A stretch of 62,163 nucleotides of DNA, the filler included. It is 12 parts of 12 records of this genome, joined end to end, with 100 filler letters (N's around TTAATTAATTAA, not from the genome) between each part and the next. Parts side by side here need not be neighbours in the genome. Positions count along the whole stretch, not along the records: positions 6,735 to 15,089 come from SRR9670534_1340; 11 more parts are not named here. One strand, written 5' to 3'. The notes beneath the pieces are model-generated. The model worked only from the letters and a program-made list of their open reading frames with translations, searched no databases and was not told where the DNA came from. This document shows positions 6,635 to 38,742 of this stretch, piece after piece. Made by a program: the position numbers and the translations under genes. The stretch's first letter is position 1, and the number at the start of each line of letters is the position of its first letter.

Positions 6635-6734
6635 NNNNNNNNNNNNNNNNNNNNNNNNNNNNNNNNNNNNNNNNNNNNTTAATTAATTAANNNNNNNNNN
6701 NNNNNNNNNNNNNNNNNNNNNNNNNNNNNNNNNN
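6635..6734. other. Artificial contig spacer (first of 11)
   Basis: 44 N + TTAATTAATTAA (stops in all six frames) + 44 N. Identical copies start at 15090, 22127, 27823, 31130, 37015, 43730, 47867, 51473, 56176 and 58526. Confidence 0.98.
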
Positions 6735-7544
6735 TTGGATAGCCCTTTCATTGGGGATCATTTTAATGTATAACATTGTTATGTTAAGTTAATAAATAGA
6801 TGGTCAATATGGACCATTTTTCATAGGTAGGTTTTGTCCTCAACTGCAAACATGCAAACCTTGAGCCCATCAAAATTGATGCAGAAACTTTGGTAATATT
6901 CATGCATCCTGGAAAAAATGTCCAACTCACCTGAGCTCTTCTGCATAAAGCATACCCATTTTATTAACTAATTATTAGACACGAATTATTCATTGATTAC
7001 TTGAGAATTATTTATTAATTATTATCCTTTAATCAGCTCTTTTATTTTCAACATGCCAAAAATGAGTTTTGTTGTGTTGAACTATAAAAAGAGGAGAAAA
7101 AAGTTGATTTTGACCATTCTTGAGGTAAATACAGCTATGATTTTTAATAGTAATGTATCTCAAAGATATGATAAAGACTCTCTTATGTCTGTTTTAAACA
7201 GTAAAATCTTTTCTGAGAGTCAATTGATACTAAAGAATGCTGTACATATGGTTATTCTATTTTATGTACAAGCAACTTTTATATGTACCTGCTTTGTACA
7301 TAGGTACACAAATTTTTCAATGTAGTGTAGCTGTATACGTATGCTAGAAAATATGAGTGCTAACATGTATGCGCAGTACTTAAGTGTACTTTTGTCAAAA
7401 TATGTATTTTCTGCATTTTTGAGGGATTACTGTATAAGTATTAACGTGCATCCTATGGTATGCCATATTTTATCGTGCAGTATTGATGAAAGTTTGGTAG
7501 TGAATTATTTAGGTATGCAACGTAATTCAATATTCGATGTATGA

Positions 7545-10500
7545 ATGACATCACCTATGATACATGCTGAGTACTCCTATAATTTTGTTTTTTGTGATAC
7601 TGTAAAATCTATCATGAATGTTAATGTGAAATATGTAATTGAGAATTTGTGTACCTATGATGTAGGTATGTACCGTACATTTAGAGTCCAGTTTGTCAAT
7701 ACCAACAACTCTGTCATGACAACTGTGATCTACACTCAAGATGGATTACTAGCAAATGTATTCCACTATGTGAAGCATAATTTGAAACAAATTCTTGATG
7801 TGAAGAACATTGAAGATTCCATAACTCTAGATTCGAGATTAGATTTGTTAGTAACAAGGGTAAAGCCTATTTTCCTGATGTTTCTACAAAAATTGGGTGA
7901 TGTACAGGCATGTACAGAGCTACAAAATGAAATGAAGAGTGTAATCTGGAAGTACTACAGAGCTGGTGTCGCGGACACGACTACTGATGTTAAAGGGTTT
8001 ACAGATGGACAGACGATTTTTGATACCATAGATGTGAAAGAGGAAGATAGAAACTTTTTAAAAAGTTTGGATCATGCTGAATTACTGAAAATAAGAGCAG
8101 CGGCTGATACGAGAATTATTACGAAAATCGAGAAAAGTAGGGGTTTGGCCCTAGATGATGATGAAATTGAAAAATTAATGGAGTATGGCTACTACTACAT
8201 TATAAATCCGGATGTAACGTACACTCGTTATTTTAATAACAATGTACTCTTGTTTCAGAGATGGATTTTCCATGGTTTTGAAAATTATGAAGGATGGGAA
8301 TGGCCAACAAACTCCAGGTTCTGGATAAACTGGTCTGAATCTCAGAAGAACCTGTCTGAATTTTTGTATGTTAGTAAAAATCACGCTTTTTCGGTTATTT
8401 TCATAGGTAGACATCTGTTTATGTTTTTGTACCAACTTATTATTGCGTACAATAGGTACCAAAACTGGTTTACAATTACCTTTAGTCAAAATTCTTGCAT
8501 TTATGAGCAGAGTGCTGCCATTTCCAGTTTTGTTCTGTCTTTTTCTTGTATTGATAGTTGTGTAATAAAGATGAGTTTTCGATTTATGTACATTTGGTTA
8601 AGAGAAATTATTCATGAGACACCAGGCTTATCTTGGTATCCGATGGAATATAGAAATAATAGAATGTTGTTTATTGGCATGAAAGATAGCATTGACAAAC
8701 TGATGCAGCTCTCAGATAATGTTAATAAACAGGAAGAATACGAGATACAGAAGACTGAAATTATTTCTACTTTTGTAGCTGCTTTTAATGAACAATTAGG
8801 TATTAGTGGACAATGCTATATGATGAAAGATGCGGAAGAAATGGACAGACAATTCGAGAATGGTCTAGAGCAGAGTGGACTGGACGGACCGGAAATGCAG
8901 ATCTCAATTGAGAATGGCAACAAGAAAGCATATGTTGAAGCGAACATATGTGAGAATAAATTGAGGCTTTCTGTGGATATGGATAACCTTGAACCGAACA
9001 AGACTTTTAACCAAAAAGCAAGGTATGAGCTGTTAATTAATATGTATCCTTCAATAATGCCTATCTTTTATAAGATTGGTGGATGCTCAAAGCAATACGA
9101 TCATGGAGATTCAGCAAGAAATAACCATGAAGATTCCTATGGTTTGAACGAACTGAAAGAGTCAAATAGCTGGCGTCATAAACTAAAATTTTTCTGTTTT
9201 ACATATACTAAACCCATAGGGATACATTTATTCAACGGCTGTGATAATAGATGTTTATTGAAGGATAAAATAAAGAAAATGAAATTGTTTAACTATGAAA
9301 ACGCTGAAAGAGACTGTTTATCTTTAAGTAGTCTTGGTACATGCTTTGGTACAACTATTATAACAGATGTCGTACCTAAAAATGTGACGTCATGTGTCGT
9401 GAATTTTAAAAACTGGTCCTATATAGGTTTTAGGTGCAAAAATGGAGCATATAAACAGCTTTTCTCTTTAGAGAGATTTACTCCTCCCTCTAGCAGTCAA
9501 CAAAAGGTAATTTTCATTTGGTTTAGACTTTTTACTATCTCATATGACTCTTTTTCAGACATATTACCTTCATTTCCGAACATTTTTGTATTTCCAACGA
9601 TAAATCTGCATTTAAAGGTAAGTCATTCTTTATTTAATCAGTTTTTGAAAGTAGTTTTTAGAAATATGGATAATATCAATGATATTATAAATGAGGATGA
9701 GATCCTGAATGATGATGATGAGATTGATGCAGAAGAAAACATCGAAGCAGAAGAAGGTCAATTACAAGATGATCCTGATGAATTGGAAAATCAAGAAAAT
9801 GGTGCAGTCAATGAGAACCAAATTCCTCCTGGCTTAATGTTTCAACAAGGTTCTATTATTACTGCTGATTTGCTGATGCAATTTTTCATTGAAAATCAAG
9901 ACATCTTCCATGTTTTGATGGATGGTGCTGAGGTTCTGAATTCAGTGCAAATGTTGAATAATGCAAGAGGCCTACATTTATACAGTCTTCAAGATATTGT
10001 TGAGCTTTTTCAACGAGGTATGTGGTTTAACAATAAGACAATGGGTTATATTATAAATTGTATAGGTAACCTTTACGGTCGATTGAGACTTGAGCCAAGA
10101 AATGAAGTAAATATTCCTGCTTTGGTGGAACCAAACAATGATTCATTCTTTAAAGAAGTTGTTGAAGCTGCCTCTGCTGAGAAGCTTGTTGAAACGAAGA
10201 ACAGATTTTTAACACCATACATCAAATGTTTGGAAGATGGTACTATTGATCCGAAATACAAAGTAAAAGCTAGAAAATGGGATCAAGCTTTAGATGCCCA
10301 AGAAATGACGCCATTTGAAGCTTATTATAAAGATGAAACTGGCTGGAAGAGTGATGTTATGACCAGATTTAATGTTAAAGGTGCAGCCCAGTGTATTTTA
10401 ATTTCAGATGTGTGGTTTCACACACGAAAAACCACCACTTACATGGATAGTGATGAAATCAAAATGATGGCAATTGCAAGAGATTCCATGTGTTTCATGG

Positions 10501-10667
10501 CTATTGAGAAACTCTTTTTGAGTTTAACTGTTGAACAGTCTACTGTCAGATCAATTATCATTGTTGCTCCTGCGTCCATGAAGAGAGAGCCTGAAGAGAA
10601 CAGAGATGCTATAATCCAACGCCTTACCAGAGCTCTTGTGATGTTTTTCGTCAGCATATGCGTTTGA
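7545..10667 (+). CDS. Large ORF1-position protein of the retroelement (1040 aa, mostly unrecognised)
   Basis: A 1040-codon open frame in AT-rich DNA, co-oriented with and directly upstream of APE-RT. It contains an acidic tract from ~9666 and the start of an alpha/beta domain near the C-terminus. Confidence 0.7.
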   Translation: MTSPMIHAEYSYNFVFCDTVKSIMNVNVKYVIENLCTYDVGMYRTFRVQFVNTNNSVMTTVIYTQDGLLANVFHYVKHNLKQILDVKNIEDSITLDSRLDLLVTRVKPIFLMFLQKLGDVQACTELQNEMKSVIWKYYRAGVADTTTDVKGFTDGQTIFDTIDVKEEDRNFLKSLDHAELLKIRAAADTRIITKIEKSRGLALDDDEIEKLMEYGYYYIINPDVTYTRYFNNNVLLFQRWIFHGFENYEGWEWPTNSRFWINWSESQKNLSEFLYVSKNHAFSVIFIGRHLFMFLYQLIIAYNRYQNWFTITFSQNSCIYEQSAAISSFVLSFSCIDSCVIKMSFRFMYIWLREIIHETPGLSWYPMEYRNNRMLFIGMKDSIDKLMQLSDNVNKQEEYEIQKTEIISTFVAAFNEQLGISGQCYMMKDAEEMDRQFENGLEQSGLDGPEMQISIENGNKKAYVEANICENKLRLSVDMDNLEPNKTFNQKARYELLINMYPSIMPIFYKIGGCSKQYDHGDSARNNHEDSYGLNELKESNSWRHKLKFFCFTYTKPIGIHLFNGCDNRCLLKDKIKKMKLFNYENAERDCLSLSSLGTCFGTTIITDVVPKNVTSCVVNFKNWSYIGFRCKNGAYKQLFSLERFTPPSSSQQKVIFIWFRLFTISYDSFSDILPSFPNIFVFPTINLHLKVSHSLFNQFLKVVFRNMDNINDIINEDEILNDDDEIDAEENIEAEEGQLQDDPDELENQENGAVNENQIPPGLMFQQGSIITADLLMQFFIENQDIFHVLMDGAEVLNSVQMLNNARGLHLYSLQDIVELFQRGMWFNNKTMGYIINCIGNLYGRLRLEPRNEVNIPALVEPNNDSFFKEVVEAASAEKLVETKNRFLTPYIKCLEDGTIDPKYKVKARKWDQALDAQEMTPFEAYYKDETGWKSDVMTRFNVKGAAQCILISDVWFHTRKTTTYMDSDEIKMMAIARDSMCFMAIEKLFLSLTVEQSTVRSIIIVAPASMKREPEENRDAIIQRLTRALVMFFVSICV

Positions 10668-11320
10668 CGACATCTATTTGTGTTATATTGAATTGGGAAG
10701 TCACTATAGATGGCACCTTGAAGACAAAAATTGTTGAAGCTAATGAAATCTGGTTGGAAATAGCTAGATCGCCCTTCTTGAAAGATAAAATCCGTTGCAT
10801 ACGTTTAGATGCTGAAAAAATGGGCATTATTAGAGAAAGAGATTGGAACAAGACTGTCTTCTATGATGACAGAATGGTTAAGTTCCGATTTTATTGGAAC
10901 TGCCCAAACAATGGAGCCATGTTCAGAGACTTAACTGATTTGACCTGGCGTACTATAGCGAATTTGGCAGGCATTGCCAAAGATGGGCAGATGGATAGAT
11001 TTATTTATGGAAAAAGAGATCGTAAGTTTCTCGATAAAATACGAAATATACCTACTATATTATGTGCAAAATTTAGGTCGTGCACCCAAGAGAAGAAAGG
11101 GTCCTGCTGGGTTTTGAAAAACCTCCGAAACCTGTTTTCAACCAGATGTTTCATTTTTCTGTTACAATGTGGTTTTTGTAGTACAATAGGTTTGCTTAAT
11201 AGTTGTTTCTTTCTGTTCTTGAAATTTTATTGTACCTGTCTTAGTGGTAGTTTCAATGTAATGGTATTTGTGTTAAATAAAGTTGCAAGTAAGGATTACA
11301 TGAAAACTTGTCCAGCATAA
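10658..11320 (+). CDS. Probable frameshifted continuation of ORF1 (SGNH-like C-terminal half)
   Basis: Overlaps the end of the 1040-aa ORF, and its frame is open upstream (SCDVFRQHMRL). It is in the same frame as APE-RT. Confidence 0.55.
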   Translation: MRLTTSICVILNWEVTIDGTLKTKIVEANEIWLEIARSPFLKDKIRCIRLDAEKMGIIRERDWNKTVFYDDRMVKFRFYWNCPNNGAMFRDLTDLTWRTIANLAGIAKDGQMDRFIYGKRDRKFLDKIRNIPTILCAKFRSCTQEKKGSCWVLKNLRNLFSTRCFIFLLQCGFCSTIGLLNSCFFLFLKFYCTCLSGSFNVMVFVLNKVASKDYMKTCPA

Positions 11321-11323
11321 AAC

Positions 11324-14300
11324 ATGTCAAAAATAAGTATGACCATTCCTAGGAAAATATGGGATAAAGCTTCAAAACGTACATCAGTTATGGCTAATAC
11401 AAGCTTAAGTAAAAAAGATGGTGAAGATATAATAGCTAAGGTTAAGGTTAGAGATAATTGTAGAAAAATAATTAAATTAAATTTTTTCTATGTAAATATC
11501 AATAGCCTTAAGAATTGCATAGAAAAGTTTTTTGTGCCATGTCTAAACTATAATCACGTGATTAGTATAGCAGAGACACATTGGAATGACTTATTAGTAA
11601 ATGAGTCAAAATCACACTGGCATAGTTTTCTAAATCGTGAAGATGGGTATGGGGATACAATGTTCACTTCCAGAAAGAAACTAGGTATGCATAAATTAAT
11701 TTTGAATACTAATAATGAACTTTTGCAAATGAACACCACAGAAATAGATCGTCTTGTAGTAACAACCATTTACGCCAAAAGTGAATTGCATGAATCTGAT
11801 GTCCTACTTGCTTTTTAGGAACATTTGCACTTGGTAAGTGATATAAATAAGGTACATATTATAGTAGGGGATTTAAACGATTGTCACAAATTCCCAAAAA
11901 GACTCAGAAGCTCCCTAGATCTTTTAGATTCATTAGGCTATATAGATTACACTTTTGACAAAACAAGAGATAAGTCTCTGGGAATAGATTGGCTGTTCAT
12001 CAATAAAATTGATGATATAGTCATTGAAAATCTAGAATGTCTTCCAAGCATGTATAGTGACCATTATAGCTACAGTTTTCAATTTCAGATTACGGGAGAT
12101 TCAATCAGTAAAAAGAGTGATTGTTTACTTTGGAACAAAACAAAGATAAAAGATCTTGATGATGAATGGAAATATAACTACTATAAAAAAGTTCGCTTTC
12201 TAGCTGAGGAAAATAATACCTTAGATTGGGAGTCTTTTGAGATCAACTCTGATGTTGATTTCAACTACAATGTACTGAAGTGGGCTGTGAACAAATCTGT
12301 GTCAGATCTAGTTCAGGTTAAATGTGTTGATGATAATCAAATGGGATGGTGTCTTTAATTTGCCAAAGATGATTTGGTACGAGAATACAGAGTACACCAA
12401 AAACTATTACGTAAAAGACTTGGTGCAGCAACAAGAATTGATAATATTGAACTTCAACAAAATTTATGTAAAGATTTACAGGTATGTGCTGTTAAATTGT
12501 GGCAAAGAAAGAATTTTCTTAAATTCAATTATTTGTCACAGCTACGGAAAAATGAACCATTCAAATTCTATCATGTTGTTACTGATTTAGCATTATATAG
12601 TAAAAAGTCTAAACAAGTTGTCTCGGAATTACGACATGGGGATAAGAAAATCAAAAATTCGAATGAAATTGCCACTCTTTTCAATATTCATTTTTGTGAA
12701 ATAGTTCCCAAATTGCTAGAAAAACATTCTATGGTACAAGGTGAAATAGGTGATAGTATCTTGAAATGCCCTTTTACAGTTGAAAGACTTCCAGATATCA
12801 AGTGGTGTAATATCCTAAATAAATTTGCTGTTCGAAAAGCAGTGCCATCTGAGGAAATTCTGCGTAGGATATGGAAAAATTTTCTATCATGTAATAGTGC
12901 GTTTTTTACTAGGTTTTATGAGAAAATATTTATAAATTGTCAAATTTCTTGGGAATGGTCACAATTTGAAATATGTCCCCTTTTTAAAAAGAGAAATGCC
13001 ATGGATCCTAATAACTATCGACCGATAGCTATTATCGATCCATTGGCAATTATTTTTGAAGAAATTTTTCTCAATGAACTAAACTATCATAATGCACTTT
13101 GGGTGCACCCCAATCAATTTGCATATAGAAGCGGAGTGGGGTGTGTAGATGCCCTACTGCAGGTTCTATTGCAAATCTCTATGTGCAAGAAACAAAACAG
13201 AGTTCTGGGAATGGTTTTTTTGGATGCCATGAAGGCTTTTGATACGATAAATCCAGAAAAACTATTCGATATATTACAGATGCACAATGTTCCTAATTAT
13301 TTATTAGTACTACTAGGAAATTACCTAGGCAAAAGGCAAGCTAGGGTTAAAATAAACGATGTTAAATCTGAATATAGAGAATTGACATGTATGGCCCAAC
13401 AAGGTTCTAAGTTGGGTCCAAAATTCTTCACCATTTGTGTGAATGGTGTATGTGGTCTCTCGAAAAGTTGCAATGATTGCAAAACAAAATTTGTGGCATG
13501 TGACTGTGACAAATTGTCCCAATATTTGGATGACTGTATGGTGTTTAGTTCTGGGTCAACTATTGATCAGGTTATAGGAAAACTAGAAATTTTCATGGAA
13601 CAAGTTTGTAATGAATTGCGTAATCTGAATATAATTTTAAACATGAAAAAGACCGAATTTTTAATAAAGCTTCCAAAAGACCCTGTTCCAGCTCAAATAT
13701 GTCGTATTAAGATTGACAATGAATGGATTTTGAATAAGTCGAAAATTCGCTATCTTGGAGGATATTTTAGTTCTGATGAAATTAAGGTGGTTATACCAGA
13801 GGTAAATAAAAAACTTTTTAAGGCTATGACATGTATTAATAACAACAAGGAATTCCTTGTGCTGAAAGATATTAGTATATTATTCAAATCATATATTCTT
13901 TCAGTTTTTGGTAATGCTTGCCTAATGTGGACCCGCGCAGACATAAGAGAACTGACCATATTATTTAATCAGAAAATGAAGCAAACTCTCTGCCTTCTCC
14001 CCTTCATCTCTAATTTGGCCTGCCGCTGTCTATTGGAAGTGGAGAGCTTGGAAAAATGGCTGGTAAGGATAAAAGCTCGTTGGCTCCTGAAAGGAATTTT
14101 TTGGATGCATGACACAGCATTCTTTAATACCCTAAGAGAGATCCTTTCAACAAAAAGAACATGGGAAATTCCAATGATTATTGATGATAAAAGTCATCCA
14201 ATAGAAATGGCCAGAAAGTTAGCAAACAAAATTTTACACAGAATAGATGAATTTTCTGGATGGAGTGATCTTCTAGCATGTAATGACATGGACAAAGTAA

Positions 14301-14662
14301 CTACTGTTGGATCACAATTTTTGGATGATCTGAAAAGTTTAAAATCTGAAGAACTTCAGAATGATCTCTCTAAATTTAAAGCAGAAACTGGTGTTGATTT
14401 TAAATCGGCTAGATGGATATTCATGAATGTACCTAAATCAGCACGTCCATTTTTTTGGGACATACACAAAGGTGCCAAGCTGAATTGGCAAAAATTTGTT
14501 CAATCTTCTAATATAAAATTCAGAATCTGGAAAAGATCCTGGAAGAGAACGAAAGATTTTGACTGTATGAATGAAGTTGATGATGCTTCAGCAGTTGAAC
14601 ATGAAGACCTGATGAACAACAGAATGGATGATAGTCAACCAGAAGACAATGATGGATTTTAA
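11324..14662 (+). pseudogene. ORF2: apurinic-like endonuclease + reverse transcriptase with two in-frame stops (TAG 11816-11818, TAA 12356-12358)
   Basis: ORFs 11324, 11825 and 12374 share one frame. APE motifs: YVNINSL, IAETHW, IVGDLN, IDWLF, SDH. RT motifs: NYRPIAI, QFAYR, FLDAMKAFD, QGSKLGP, YLDD, KTEFL, IRYLG. Confidence 0.92.
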
Positions 14663-15015
14663 ACAATTGTCTGATCTGGCTTTAGTTAATTTTTATTTGT
14701 ATTATTTTTTACGTATTTACTACAGAGGCAGATATGTAATTATCGCAAATAAGACGGCTTTGTCACATTAGCAACATTACTGCTTTTCCATGAGTAATAT
14801 CCTTTTAGGATAGCGTCTCTGAATAATATTTGATATTATTAAAATATCATGTAAACTTCCAGTCACTTTGACTGTGTCCTAAAGACTTTACTTTTAGATA
14901 TTGTCTTTTATTCTTATGGATTATATGATACTGATGCGAATTATATTCGAGTTTATTTGTTCTTTTTGTTGATTTTTGTATTACTGCCATTTGTACGTAT
15001 TTTATATTAGTATAG

Positions 15016-15061
15016 TACACAGCTACAGGTGTATAATAAAGAGTAGTAGTAGTAGTAGTAG
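15016..15061 (+). repeat. LINE 3' terminus: short stem-loop, AATAAA and (TAG)7 tail
   Basis: TACAC (15016-20) pairs with GTGTA (15029-33); AATAAA at 15035-40; GAGTAGTAGTAGTAGTAGTAG at 15041-61. Confidence 0.7.
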
Positions 15062-15189
15062 GTTATAAAGTCACATAACATGGAAACAANNNNNNNNNNN
15101 NNNNNNNNNNNNNNNNNNNNNNNNNNNNNNNNNTTAATTAATTAANNNNNNNNNNNNNNNNNNNNNNNNNNNNNNNNNNNNNNNNNNNN

Positions 15190-21467: not shown

Positions 21468-22510
21468 ACGTAAACAACAATGTTCGAACACATGAAAGCT
21501 TTGGCATGTGGTAGGTAAACTACCCGGTGCATACCTATGTATGGTACATTGCGTACGTAATACATATGTACAAATCTTATACCTACATATGTACTAAATC
21601 ACATACGATGTAGTAACATACCGCACATGTATAGGTAAATATGTATAATAAATTATCATTAATAATGGAACGTGTAACACGTTACATGTTGGATTACCCA
21701 GATAGGTACGAGTGAATGAATTTCGAATCGACGAATTACGGTAGGTAGGTACATTCTGACGCATATAGTCTATAGAACACCTAGAAAAATAATGAAACGC
21801 AGTCCTACACAGACTGCGTAGCCTACAGTATAGGCCCTACATTCTACTGTAATGGAAAATAGGTACCTAACCTTAACATTTTAATTTAGGTAATTTAATT
21901 TAATTTTATTGTATAATTCAGTATTGCAGCGAACATTGGGTGCACAATACTTTCTACGTACATATTATGTATACCTATGTAGTACATAATATTTAGGGAT
22001 AGACATAACAGGTACGCAAGTATAATACATGCTTGAAGTATTGGTACAATTATTGTACATACTACAATAGGTATGCAGATATAGTAGACATAATATGTAG
22101 GTACAGTGAGACACATAAGTTGTGTCNNNNNNNNNNNNNNNNNNNNNNNNNNNNNNNNNNNNNNNNNNNNTTAATTAATTAANNNNNNNNNNNNNNNNNN
22201 NNNNNNNNNNNNNNNNNNNNNNNNNNTTGGACATTTTTGCCGTAGTACGTGAATAACATGCTATATATAAATTATACATAATTTACTATTGTTACATAGA
22301 CTACTACTAGTTCAAATTATGATTAGCGCATTAATTATTTTTAAAGTATAACTATTAGTATTTTCCTTTCTTATAGTAGTTATATGAGTATTTAATTAAA
22401 TATTAACAGTAGGCTAATCATAAATTTGTATTAAAATTTAATAATTACACCATGAAATTGAAACTAGTAATTTATAGTAATTTATATTAAAGTTATTAAA
22501 TAATTACACC

Positions 22511-37295: not shown

Positions 37296-38742
37296 ATGGA
37301 ATTGCCCATATACAATCTTATGTGATATAATGTATAATAAGCTACTGTATTTTCGCTGCTTTTACATAATTTGTTAAGATTTTCCAAAAAAATTTGTGGC
37401 AGAATTGTTTCAAAATCACCAGTCAAAAGCTGCAAAAATGGAAAGTATGTCAAATCAGTATTAATGGATCATAGTGGTGAAATTACTATAACTGCTTTTC
37501 AAGAATCTTATGATAATTTTAATAAATTGGTTGAAGTGGGCAAGGTGTATGAATTTGATAGATGCCAAATTTCACCAGCAAAAGAGCAATTTAACACTAC
37601 AAATCATGCATGTGAAGTAGTCATTGGTAAATACAGCATGATTATTCCATTAGCAGTGCCAGATAATTCACTGGAATTCCCCAGAAAGGAGACTTATAAT
37701 TTTGTTAAATTTAACAATTTTATGGAGTTGAAAAATTCTGGCAGACCAATTGTAGATGTTCTTGCCATTTGTATTGCAACTTGGCCATTAGGTTACTATT
37801 CGGTAAAGTATACCGAAGATTTGGTGCCTAGAAGGTCAGTGAGATTGGTTGATGATTCAGGACATTCGCTAATTATGGGAATCTTTGGAGAACCTGCTGT
37901 AAACTTTCCTGAAGGACAGTTTGATGAAGAAGGATTTGTTATGGTTGCTTTAAAAAACGCAAAGATTGGTACCTATAATGGATGTATTACGTTGGATTTA
38001 ACATCAGATTGTGGTGACAGGATTAAATTTAATCCCGAAGAAGGCACTGAGCTAAAGAGTTGGTATGAGAAGGAAGGTAAAATCAAAACATTTTGCCCTA
38101 TTGAACATGGAGAAAAGAATTTCAAAAGTATAAAGGAAGTAATTGAAGCTGGCATTCCTCAAGGAAAAAATGCTGGATATTATTTTATAAAAGCAAATAT
38201 TGGAGTTGTCACCAAATTTGATTTGTTGGAAGGTTTCTATCAGGTTAGTTAGCTTTATTAATACAATGGAAATTCCGTTATGGAATATGTTTGATTGATT
38301 GGCATTTGTAGGGTTGTTCTGTGCATTTAACTGCTGGAGAGGAATGCAGTAAATGCGAAAGTAATTTCAAGTCAACAAATTTATTCAGGTTAAAGTTAGA
38401 CCTGATAGATGCTGATAGAAAAATGTTAAACTTAACTTTTTTTAACAGAACAGCACAACGATTACTACCAGATCTAACAGCGAATGATTTGGCTGTTTTA
38501 AAGGAGATGTATGACGCAACTTTTGAGAAGGAAGGACGTTCGGTAAGAATTTAAAAAATACGTGTATAAAATAGAGTATTATTTTGTATTCTACATAGGT
38601 TGCTGATGAATCCGAAGTTGGTGAAAAATTGGATGGGATTGCATCCAAACTAACAAATAATGACAACTACTATTTTAAAATAAAGGTATCACTGTATGAG
38701 GAAGAATTTAACGCTGTTTGTCTTGACTTGTATGATAAGTAA
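37296..38742 (+). CDS. Divergent RPA1 (RPA70)-like ssDNA-binding protein with OB folds A, B and C
   Basis: LMDHSGEITITAF, VEVGKVYEF, IVDVLAIC, RRSVRLVDDSG and ELKSWY, then a C-terminal OB fold with a Zn site (CSVH...CSKC) and LTFFNRTAQRLL. Exons ~37296-37321, 37379-38243, 38312-38542, 38599-38742; the first exon is tentative. Confidence 0.85.

What the first reader, a model, noticed from the sequence alone, without database searches (positions are those of the whole stretch)
13400..13534. Cys-rich insertion inside the RT palm next to a YLDD active site
Seen: QGSKLGPKFFTICVNGV-CGLSKSCNDCKTKFVACDCDKLSQ-YLDD has six Cys, including CxxC and CxC, and 41 residues between QGS and YxDD. Established: APE-type RTs usually have roughly 30 residues here, with GVPQGS and YADD. 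Inference: a ~12-aa insert could form a metal-binding knuckle beside the catalytic aspartates and would be a diagnostic family feature.
Basis: partly seen in the sequence, partly recalled or inferred. Interest (0 to 1): 0.7.

Follow-up and report, generated by a model that had tools for sequence, protein, structure and literature searches.

The report
Cysteine-rich loop in a LINE reverse transcriptase
A broken, very divergent LINE retrotransposon has about 12 extra, cysteine-rich residues in a surface loop of its reverse transcriptase, which could hold a zinc ion but may just be a tolerated loop expansion, and no other copy was available to decide.

Summary
The peptide is there exactly as read: window 13400-13534 (+) has six Cys, CNDC and CDC, and YLDD. 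It lies in an RT ORF (12359-14662; RVT_1 E 2e-26). The nearest relatives are CR1/Jockey-like RTs at 21-34% identity. Against them the loop between the motif-B helix and the motif-C strand is about 12 residues longer (41 vs a mode of 28). The length is not unusual for APE-type LINEs in general: human L1 ORF2p aligns gap-free with the same spacing.

No sister copy or close homologue could be found by any route, so Cys conservation is untested. AlphaFold2 models the RT well (mean pLDDT 79.8), but the insert scores below 50. Part of the Cys excess comes from in-frame microduplication (TGTGAC x2 gives CDCD), and one Cys is shared with short-loop relatives.

A separate, unnamed RT clade carries a strictly conserved CxCx4-6Cx3-4C insert at the same site (27 of 27 rows; pLDDT 83-85). 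The tree places that clade apart from this element.

The copy is defective, with three in-frame stops.

Verdict: a real lineage-specific loop expansion. Zinc binding is plausible (about 0.35) but unshown. "Beside the catalytic aspartates" holds in sequence only. Interest is moderate to low.

The parts
6735..15089 (+). The contig that holds the element. The window is a chain of 12 contigs joined by N44-TTAATTAATTAA-N44 spacers.
   Evidence: N runs listed; spacer read
7545..10667 (+). Candidate ORF1: 1040 codons, no stop under the standard code, no known relatives. It overlaps the ORF2-frame open stretch by 73 nt.
   Evidence: No Pfam hit. No homologue at E<=0.001 among 5042 candidates of 572-1820 aa. 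PDB best E 0.36.
10595..11317 (+). A 241-codon open stretch in the ORF2 frame upstream of the endonuclease part, ended by TAA at 11318-11320.
   Evidence: no Pfam hit
11324..12355 (+). APE-like endonuclease part plus linker, interrupted by in-frame TAG at 11816-11818 and ended by in-frame TAA at 12356-12358.
   Evidence: Weak PF03372 match: E 0.013, 15.7 bits, below the 24.5 cut-off; residues 59-229 against profile positions 4-204 of 225.
12359..14662 (+). RT-bearing open frame of 767 codons, ending in TAA. RVT_1 match at about 12986-13759.
   Evidence: AF2 mean pLDDT 79.8, pTM 0.79. Foldseek top hits are R2 and LINE-1 ORF2p.
13223..13225 (+). Motif A catalytic Asp (FLDAMKAFD), an invariant column in the 122-row alignment.
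13400..13450 (+). Motif B (MAQ-QGSKLGP) and its helix. It includes C13, which replaces the usual aromatic residue of ...Y-I-N-D.
13451..13510 (+). The expanded loop CGLSKSCNDCKTKFVACDCD: 20 aa with five Cys, against about 8 aa in the nearest relatives.
   Evidence: pLDDT below 50 for model residues 228-245
13499..13510 (+). Perfect in-frame tandem duplication TGTGAC TGTGAC, which encodes CDCD.
   Evidence: One of 2 such duplications in 4068 nt; 0.02 expected in this 60-nt loop.
13468..13482 (+). TTGCAA repeated at 9-nt spacing, underlying C-N-D-C-K.
13523..13534 (+). Motif C, YLDD.
15042..15061 (+). (AGT)n microsatellite about 380 nt after the ORF2 stop and 28 nt before the contig end. Possible 3' tail of the element.

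Best explanation
This is a lineage-specific expansion of about 12 residues in the surface loop that joins the motif-B helix to the motif-C strand of the RT palm. The element is a very divergent, now defective, APE-type LINE whose nearest relatives are CR1/Jockey-like RTs.

The loop is an insertion-tolerant site, and here it grew at least partly by small in-frame duplications (TGTGAC x2 gives CDCD; TTGCAA...TTGCAA gives CNDCK). Those duplications copied Cys codons, and one Cys was already present in short-loop relatives. The Cys richness therefore need not reflect selection for metal ligands.

The loop hangs at the end of the beta-hairpin away from the catalytic Asp residues. It is not part of the catalytic centre, and the catalytic residues themselves are intact.

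Shown: the insert, its position in the fold, the duplications, and the defective state of the copy. Inferred: that the loop is merely tolerated, or at most structural.
For: - The insert is real against relatives.
- The site takes insertions in other lineages, both without Cys (P0118, 43 aa, 0 Cys) and with Cys (P0072, 59 aa).
- There is a perfect 6-nt tandem duplication inside the loop (0.02 expected there), plus a TTGCAA repeat at 9-nt spacing.
- The nearest relatives P0040, P0050 and P0054 already have a Cys directly before the K/R-x-x-Q-Y-A-D-D strand.
- The insert has pLDDT 33-44 while the rest of the RT is confident.
- The protein-wide shuffle test is only modest: 947 of 20000.
- The ORF's Cys content of 3.15% is close to what this base composition gives at random (my calculation).
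- The catalytic residues D150, Q209/G210, D252/D253 and K292 are all kept.
Against: - Five Cys in 19 residues, with a CxxC and a CxC, is the kind of spacing seen in small zinc knuckles.
- A separate clade keeps four Cys at the same loop in 27 of 27 rows, with variable residues between them. This shows the site can host a selected Cys4 module.
- AF2's low confidence may only reflect that no row of the alignment covers this insert.
- The overall number of 6-12-nt perfect duplications in the frame (2) is not above shuffles (mean 1.32).
Confidence: 0.5

Rival explanations
1. The loop is a small zinc knuckle. Four of C226/C232/C235/C242/C244 (model numbering), most simply the CNDC and CDC pairs, would chelate one Zn2+. 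That would stiffen a protrusion on the outer face of the palm, which could then dock on template or target nucleic acid or on another domain of ORF2p. It would be functionally analogous to the C-terminal Cys-rich fingers of other LINEs, and I see no such finger in this ORF2's C-terminal region.
For: The Cys density and spacing fit. An independent clade has an invariant CxCx4-6Cx3-4C at the same site, of similar size (40-42 vs 41), modelled with pLDDT 83-85. L1's Cys-rich CTD motif is a C2HC zinc finger that contacts target DNA (PMC7617806, passages read), so zinc modules are used by LINE ORF2 proteins.
Against: There are no conservation data at all. The insert has pLDDT below 50. The Cys pattern differs from that of the Cys4 clade and the two do not align. 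The Cys pairs lie on microduplications. The only copy seen is defective.
Confidence: 0.35
2. The insert, or part of it, is private to this dead copy. It would have arisen by post-insertion slippage and substitutions during decay, or by an assembly error, and so would say nothing about the family.
For: The ORF2 frame has three in-frame stops (TAA 11318, TAG 11816, TAA 12356). The 6-nt duplication is perfect, so it could be recent. The query departs from 15 of 49 strongly conserved columns. The contig is a short piece of a fragmented assembly.
Against: The frame is open for 767 codons through the RT, with no frameshift over 1355 codons in DNA of about 33% G+C. This argues for little decay; my rough estimate from three nonsense codons is about 2% divergence. 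That level would change about one residue of the loop, not create it.
Confidence: 0.1
3. The 41-residue segment is not an insert but the ancestral long form kept from L1/R2-like RTs, and the 28-residue form of the relatives is the derived state.
For: Human L1 ORF2p aligns gap-free over the segment.
Against: The tree places the query inside the short-loop QGSxLGP group (SH-aLRT 88-91), well away from the long-loop outgroup rows (split supported at 97). There is no residue similarity to L1 within the segment beyond the motifs.
Confidence: 0.05

Closest known systems
CR1/Jockey-like APE-type LINE RTs (nearest rows P0040, P0048, P0033, P0039, P0050, P0054; mostly unnamed metagenome or animal proteins)
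   Same: They are the best sequence matches (21-34% identity). They share the QGSxLGP motif B and the K-x-x-Q-Y strand before motif C, and they group with the query in the tree (SH-aLRT 91). The relatives show an APE+RT architecture through their Pfam domains.
   Different: They have 27-29 residues from QG to xDD against 41 here. They have GVPQGS where the query has MAQQGS, and [YF]ADD where it has YLDD. The query disagrees at 15 of 49 strongly conserved columns and sits on a very long branch (2.17). The clade names CR1/Jockey are my label from motif recall, because no Repbase reference set was available.
Unnamed RT clade with a Cys4 insert (P0060, P0149, P0173-P0176, P0178, P0180-P0182, P0185, P0186, P0188, P0189, P0191-P0193, P0195)
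   Same: Its insert has the same size (40-42 vs 41), lies in the same loop, and is Cys-rich.
   Different: Its pattern is CxCx4-6Cx3-4C, placed next to the helix end. The query has C-x5-C-x2-C-x6-C-x-C, running up to the strand. The tree places the clade elsewhere (inside a 23-row clade supported at 99). Forcing the query into it costs 25.3 lnL units, with AU p 0.097, which is not rejected. Its insert is confidently modelled (pLDDT 83-85), unlike the query's.
Human LINE-1 ORF2p RT (8sxt_A, 8c8j_A)
   Same: The fold matches (Foldseek E 1e-13, TM 0.57-0.63). The motif B-to-C spacing is identical, with a gap-free alignment.
   Different: Identity is 17-18%. That segment of L1 has only one Cys (in QGC). 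L1's zinc finger is in the C-terminal domain (PMC7617806, passages). L1 has FADD.
R2 retrotransposon proteins (9dou_A, 8gh6_A, 9nl3_A)
   Same: They are the top structural matches of the RT model (E 3e-15 to 2e-14).
   Different: R2 elements use a restriction-like endonuclease C-terminal to the RT and have N-terminal DNA-binding domains (recalled, not tested). The HMMER alignment stops at the start of the query's insert.

Membership tests
APE-type non-LTR retrotransposon (LINE) | Reverse transcriptase domain with catalytic motifs A-E | tested here: met
   RVT_1 E 2.1e-26. D150, Q209/G210, D252/D253, K292 and L327/G328 fall in invariant or near-invariant columns. The fold is closest to R2 and L1 RTs.
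APE-type non-LTR retrotransposon (LINE) | Apurinic/apyrimidinic-type endonuclease N-terminal to the RT in the same frame | tested here: inconclusive
   The PF03372 match is below threshold (E 0.013, 15.7 vs 24.5 bits) but covers profile positions 4-204 of 225. ETH, GDLN and SDH-like motifs are visible by eye (motif names recalled). The region is broken by an in-frame TAG.
APE-type non-LTR retrotransposon (LINE) | Repeated in the genome, with 3' tail and target-site duplications | not testable with these tools
   No genome is held, there is no second copy in the window, and the contig ends 28 nt after an (AGT)n run.
CR1/Jockey-like RT group | Nearest by sequence and phylogeny | tested here: met
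   Support is weak (SH-aLRT 88-91) and the branch is long.
CR1/Jockey-like RT group | GVPQGSxLGP motif B, [YF]ADD motif C, 27-30 residues between them | tested here: not met
   The query has MAQQGSKLGP, YLDD and 41 residues. G206, V207, P208 and A251 are 95-99% conserved in the other 121 rows.
Cys4-insert RT clade | CxCx4-6Cx3-4C directly after the ...IND-x helix end | tested here: not met
   The query pattern is C-x5-C-x2-C-x6-C-x-C, and MAFFT does not align the Cys columns.
Cys4-insert RT clade | Phylogenetic inclusion | tested here: inconclusive
   The free tree places the query elsewhere. The constrained tree is 25.3 lnL worse, AU p 0.097. The constraint group was named after seeing the tree.
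Zinc knuckle / small Cys4 metal site | Four or more Cys/His within about 20 residues, arranged in pairs | tested here: met
   CNDC and CDC plus one more Cys within 19 residues.
Zinc knuckle / small Cys4 metal site | Ligands conserved among homologues | not testable with these tools
   No homologue carries this insert. The best identity is 34% in a library that represents about 15 billion proteins.
Zinc knuckle / small Cys4 metal site | Compact, confidently predicted fold with the ligands converging; metal actually bound | tested here: inconclusive
   pLDDT is below 50 over residues 228-245. Metal binding needs an experiment.

The most novel reading that the evidence does not exclude
A cysteine-liganded zinc knuckle has been built into the motif B-to-C loop of the RT palm at least twice in CR1/Jockey-like LINEs. 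One instance is the large unnamed CxCx4-6Cx3-4C clade and the other is this divergent element. It would serve as a nucleic-acid or domain-docking module on the back of the palm, a position where no LINE RT has a described metal site.
Probability: 0.2. Interest if true: 0.65.

Novelty: new variant of a known kind. Interest (0 to 1): 0.35.

Why it matters
Solved LINE RTs (L1, R2) carry their zinc modules outside the polymerase core. A selected Cys4 module inside the palm loop would be a new structural accessory of non-LTR RTs, and a handy clade marker.

For this element alone the case is weak, because there is one defective copy and no conservation data. The by-product is more solid: a large RT clade with an invariant Cys4 insert at the same site. 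It gives a concrete target for metal analysis and structure work on how LINE RTs add functions to tolerant loops.

Tried and rejected
Searches for sister copies, all blank:
- tblastn and blastn of the element against the window found only itself.
- No whole genome is held for this window.
- Earlier findings of this scan, looked up by sequence, by genome and by words, returned nothing.
- In the metagenome contig scan with six peptide patterns, 27 stretches matched a pattern but none encoded a relative.
- No public sequencing run was listed, and no RNA holder was listed.

Alternative genetic code (TAA/TAG read as Gln) as the reason for the three in-frame stops: rejected. The 1040-codon ORF1 on the same contig has no TAA or TAG at all, and the other contigs carry long standard-code animal ORFs.

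Intron inside the insert: rejected by eye. GTATGT is present at 13447, but there is no usable AG acceptor and the frame reads through.

Other blanks:
- Tandem Repeats Finder found no array in 13350-13600.
- Rfam found no family in the window.
- ORF1 has no Pfam, PDB or homologue match.
- The cluster look-ups gave no names for the Cys4 clade. For the hits nearest the query they gave only a few source labels: a pseudoscorpion, an octocoral and a Bacteroidota MAG.

Literature: six full-text searches and passage look-ups in three papers found no description of a Cys-rich insert between RT motifs B and C. The look-ups were PMC10499050 (no hits), PMC7617806 and PMC10830420. 'RT4a' occurred in none of the ten papers listed. 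Supplementary files were not seen, and Repbase is not available here, so a described family with this insert cannot be excluded.

An FastTree tree of 160 rows agreed that the query is a long branch among short-loop rows. The 52-row IQ-TREE tree was used in its place.

Full report
**Observation**

Window 13400-13534 on the + strand reads QGSKLGPKFFTICVNGVCGLSKSCNDCKTKFVACDCDKLSQYLDD. It has six Cys, a CxxC (CNDC), a CxC (CDC) and YLDD. There are 41 residues from Q to the residue before Y. The stretch lies in a 767-codon open frame (12359-14662) that matches Pfam RVT_1 at E 2.1e-26.

**Context**

The window is not one stretch of genome. Eleven spacers of the form N44-TTAATTAATTAA-N44 join 12 contigs. 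The element's contig is 6735-15089.

Other contigs encode class A and class C GPCRs, a RasGEF-PH protein, an RPA-like OB-fold protein and an MFS transporter. The assembly is therefore from an animal, with about 31% G+C.

On the element's contig the RT frame continues upstream, without any frameshift, to 10595. It passes through three in-frame stops: TAA 11318, TAG 11816 and TAA 12356.

The part between 11324 and 12355 gives a sub-threshold but nearly full-length match to the APE family PF03372 (E 0.013).

A 1040-codon ORF (7545-10667) in another frame overlaps the start of this frame. It has no Pfam, PDB or sequence relatives and is the likely ORF1. An (AGT)n run lies about 380 nt after the ORF2 stop, just before the contig end.

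The thing is therefore a two-ORF, APE-type LINE whose ORF2 is defective. A reassigned genetic code does not explain the stops, because ORF1 has no TAA or TAG in 1040 codons.

**Relatives**

No close relative exists in the libraries searched.
- The word-indexed search gave 23 hits at 22-34% identity.
- The exhaustive HMMER search of 1.84 billion cluster representatives gave 35689 hits. The listed best 150 are 21-34% identical.
- No sister copy was found in the window, in earlier scan notes or in metagenome contigs. No sequencing run was listed.

**Is it an insert?**

In 173 related proteins, 170 of 182 motif-B-to-C segments span 24-33 residues (89 of them 28), and 12 span 39 or more.

Aligned with its nearest relatives, the query has a 20-residue loop (CGLSKSCNDCKTKFVACDCD) where they have about 8. 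So there is an insert of about 12 residues relative to the CR1/Jockey-like RTs it resembles.

The premise that APE-type RTs in general have about 30 residues here is wrong. HMMER aligns human L1 ORF2p (8sxt_A, 8c8j_A) to the query with no gap from QG to xDD, which is the same 41 spacing.

**Where it sits**

AlphaFold2 was run with a 122-row alignment and gave a good RT model (mean pLDDT 79.8, pTM 0.79). Its best structural matches are R2 and LINE-1 ORF2p.

The insert follows the 20-residue motif-B helix (213-232) and precedes the 5-residue strand (246-250) that leads to D252/D253. Residues 228-245 have pLDDT below 50.

By the geometry of a helix-loop-strand, the loop is at the end of the hairpin away from the catalytic Asp residues. 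It is next to YLDD in sequence but not in space.

**Is the Cys richness selected?**

Points for selection:
- There are five Cys in 19 residues, against 3.15% Cys in ORF2.
- Shuffles of ORF2 reach five Cys in 19 residues somewhere in 947 of 20000 trials, and six in 24 residues in 296 of 20000.

Points against:
- CDCD is encoded by a perfect tandem duplication, TGTGAC TGTGAC, at 13499-13510.
- CNDCK lies on TTGCAA repeated at 9-nt spacing.
- Three of the six nearest relatives already have a Cys directly before the K/R-x-x-Q-Y strand.
- C13 replaces the usual aromatic residue of the helix and is not part of the insert.

Discounting duplicated and inherited Cys leaves about two new independent Cys in about 13 new residues. 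By my estimate this is only borderline unusual.

**A parallel case**

Three hits of the first searches (P0060, P0149, P0173) have a 40-41-residue segment with four Cys.

A search with P0173 showed a large group: 6283 of 7999 scored candidates had E<=0.001. Among the best 120 proteins, 16 of 123 segments span 40-42 residues, all with four or more Cys, while 88 span 28.

In an 85-row alignment, 27 rows carry the long insert; they represent 18 distinct 90% clusters plus 9 cluster mates. All 27 keep CxCx4-6Cx3-4C while the residues between vary. In P0193 the fourth Cys is shifted by one residue.

AlphaFold2 models P0060 with mean pLDDT 91.7, and 83-85 over the insert. This is good evidence for a selected Cys4 module in that clade.

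Its members are unnamed metagenome or run-assembly proteins. Six full-text searches found no description of it. Repbase and paper supplements could not be checked.

**Is the query's insert the same thing?**

The Cys patterns differ and do not align.

I built an IQ-TREE tree of 52 hand-picked RT cores: the query, 12 of the 18 insert-bearing clusters, 13 of their short-loop kin, 19 top hits of the query and 7 long-loop rows. Insert columns dropped out through the 30% fill rule.
- The query sits on a very long branch (2.17) with the short-loop rows P0048, P0033, P0039, P0040, P0050 and P0054 (SH-aLRT 91).
- The Cys4 rows lie in a 16-row group (SH-aLRT 87), which sits inside a 23-row clade (SH-aLRT 99) elsewhere in the tree.
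- Forcing the query into that 16-row group costs 25.3 log-likelihood units, with AU p 0.097. This is not rejected, and the group was chosen after seeing the tree.

Independent origin is the better reading, but common origin is not excluded.

**Other peculiarities of the RT**

The query disagrees with 15 of 49 columns that are at least 85% conserved in the other 121 rows. These include GVP to MAQ before QGS and A to L in motif C. None of the 282 compared proteins in which the motif pattern matched has YLDD. The catalytic residues are kept.

In L1 the small Ala of FADD has been linked to weaker 3TC inhibition than in the YMDD of HIV-1 RT (PMC10830420, passages read). A Leu here makes the site more retrovirus-like, but that was not pursued.

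**Verdict**

The insert is a real, lineage-specific expansion of an insertion-tolerant palm loop in a divergent, defective LINE. My odds are:
- Best reading (0.5): a tolerated loop that grew partly by microduplication.
- Main rival (0.35): a zinc knuckle. The Cys4 clade makes it plausible, but nothing measurable here supports it.
- Lesser readings: a change private to this copy or an artefact (0.1), and an ancestral long form (0.05).

It is a new variant of a known kind and of moderate-to-low interest by itself. The conserved Cys4 clade found along the way is the more promising lead.

Noticed in passing
window 6635-6734, 15090-15189, 22127-22226 and eight more sites: Each gap is N44 + TTAATTAATTAA + N44, which is an artificial six-frame-stop spacer. 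The window is therefore 12 separate contigs chained together, and neighbourhood across gaps is not genomic.
   Followed up: partly
window 7545-10667 (+): A 1040-codon ORF with no stop in DNA of about 33% G+C, and no Pfam, PDB or sequence relative. It contains an acidic stretch and lies directly upstream of, and overlapping, the ORF2 frame. It is probably an orphan ORF1 of unusual size.
   Followed up: partly
window 11318-11320, 11816-11818, 12356-12358: There are three in-frame TAA/TAG stops but no frameshift in a 1355-codon frame. The 241 codons upstream of the first stop (10595-11317) are also open, which is very unlikely by chance at this base composition. ORF2 may therefore once have started upstream of the APE part.
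   Followed up: partly
proteins P0060, P0149, P0173-P0176, P0178, P0180-P0182, P0185, P0186, P0188, P0189, P0191-P0193, P0195 (not in the window): A clade of CR1-like LINE RTs from unnamed assemblies has an invariant CxCx4-6Cx3-4C insert between motifs B and C. Kin with 30-33-residue loops keep one to three of the Cys (P0177, P0183, P0184, P0200), as if the module were being lost or built.
   Followed up: partly
window 13523-13534: Motif C is YLDD rather than [FY]ADD (0 of 282 relatives), and motif B is preceded by MAQ rather than GVP. The active-site surroundings are unusual for a non-LTR RT.
   Followed up: partly
window 15042-15061: There is an (AGT)n run 28 nt before the contig end. It may be the microsatellite-type 3' tail of the element. 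Target-site duplications cannot be looked for because the contig ends.
   Followed up: no
window 37341-38249 (+): A 303-codon ORF on a separate contig has RPA-type OB folds (REPA_OB_2, tRNA_anti-codon). Whether it is the host RPA gene or a transposon-captured copy was not examined.
   Followed up: no
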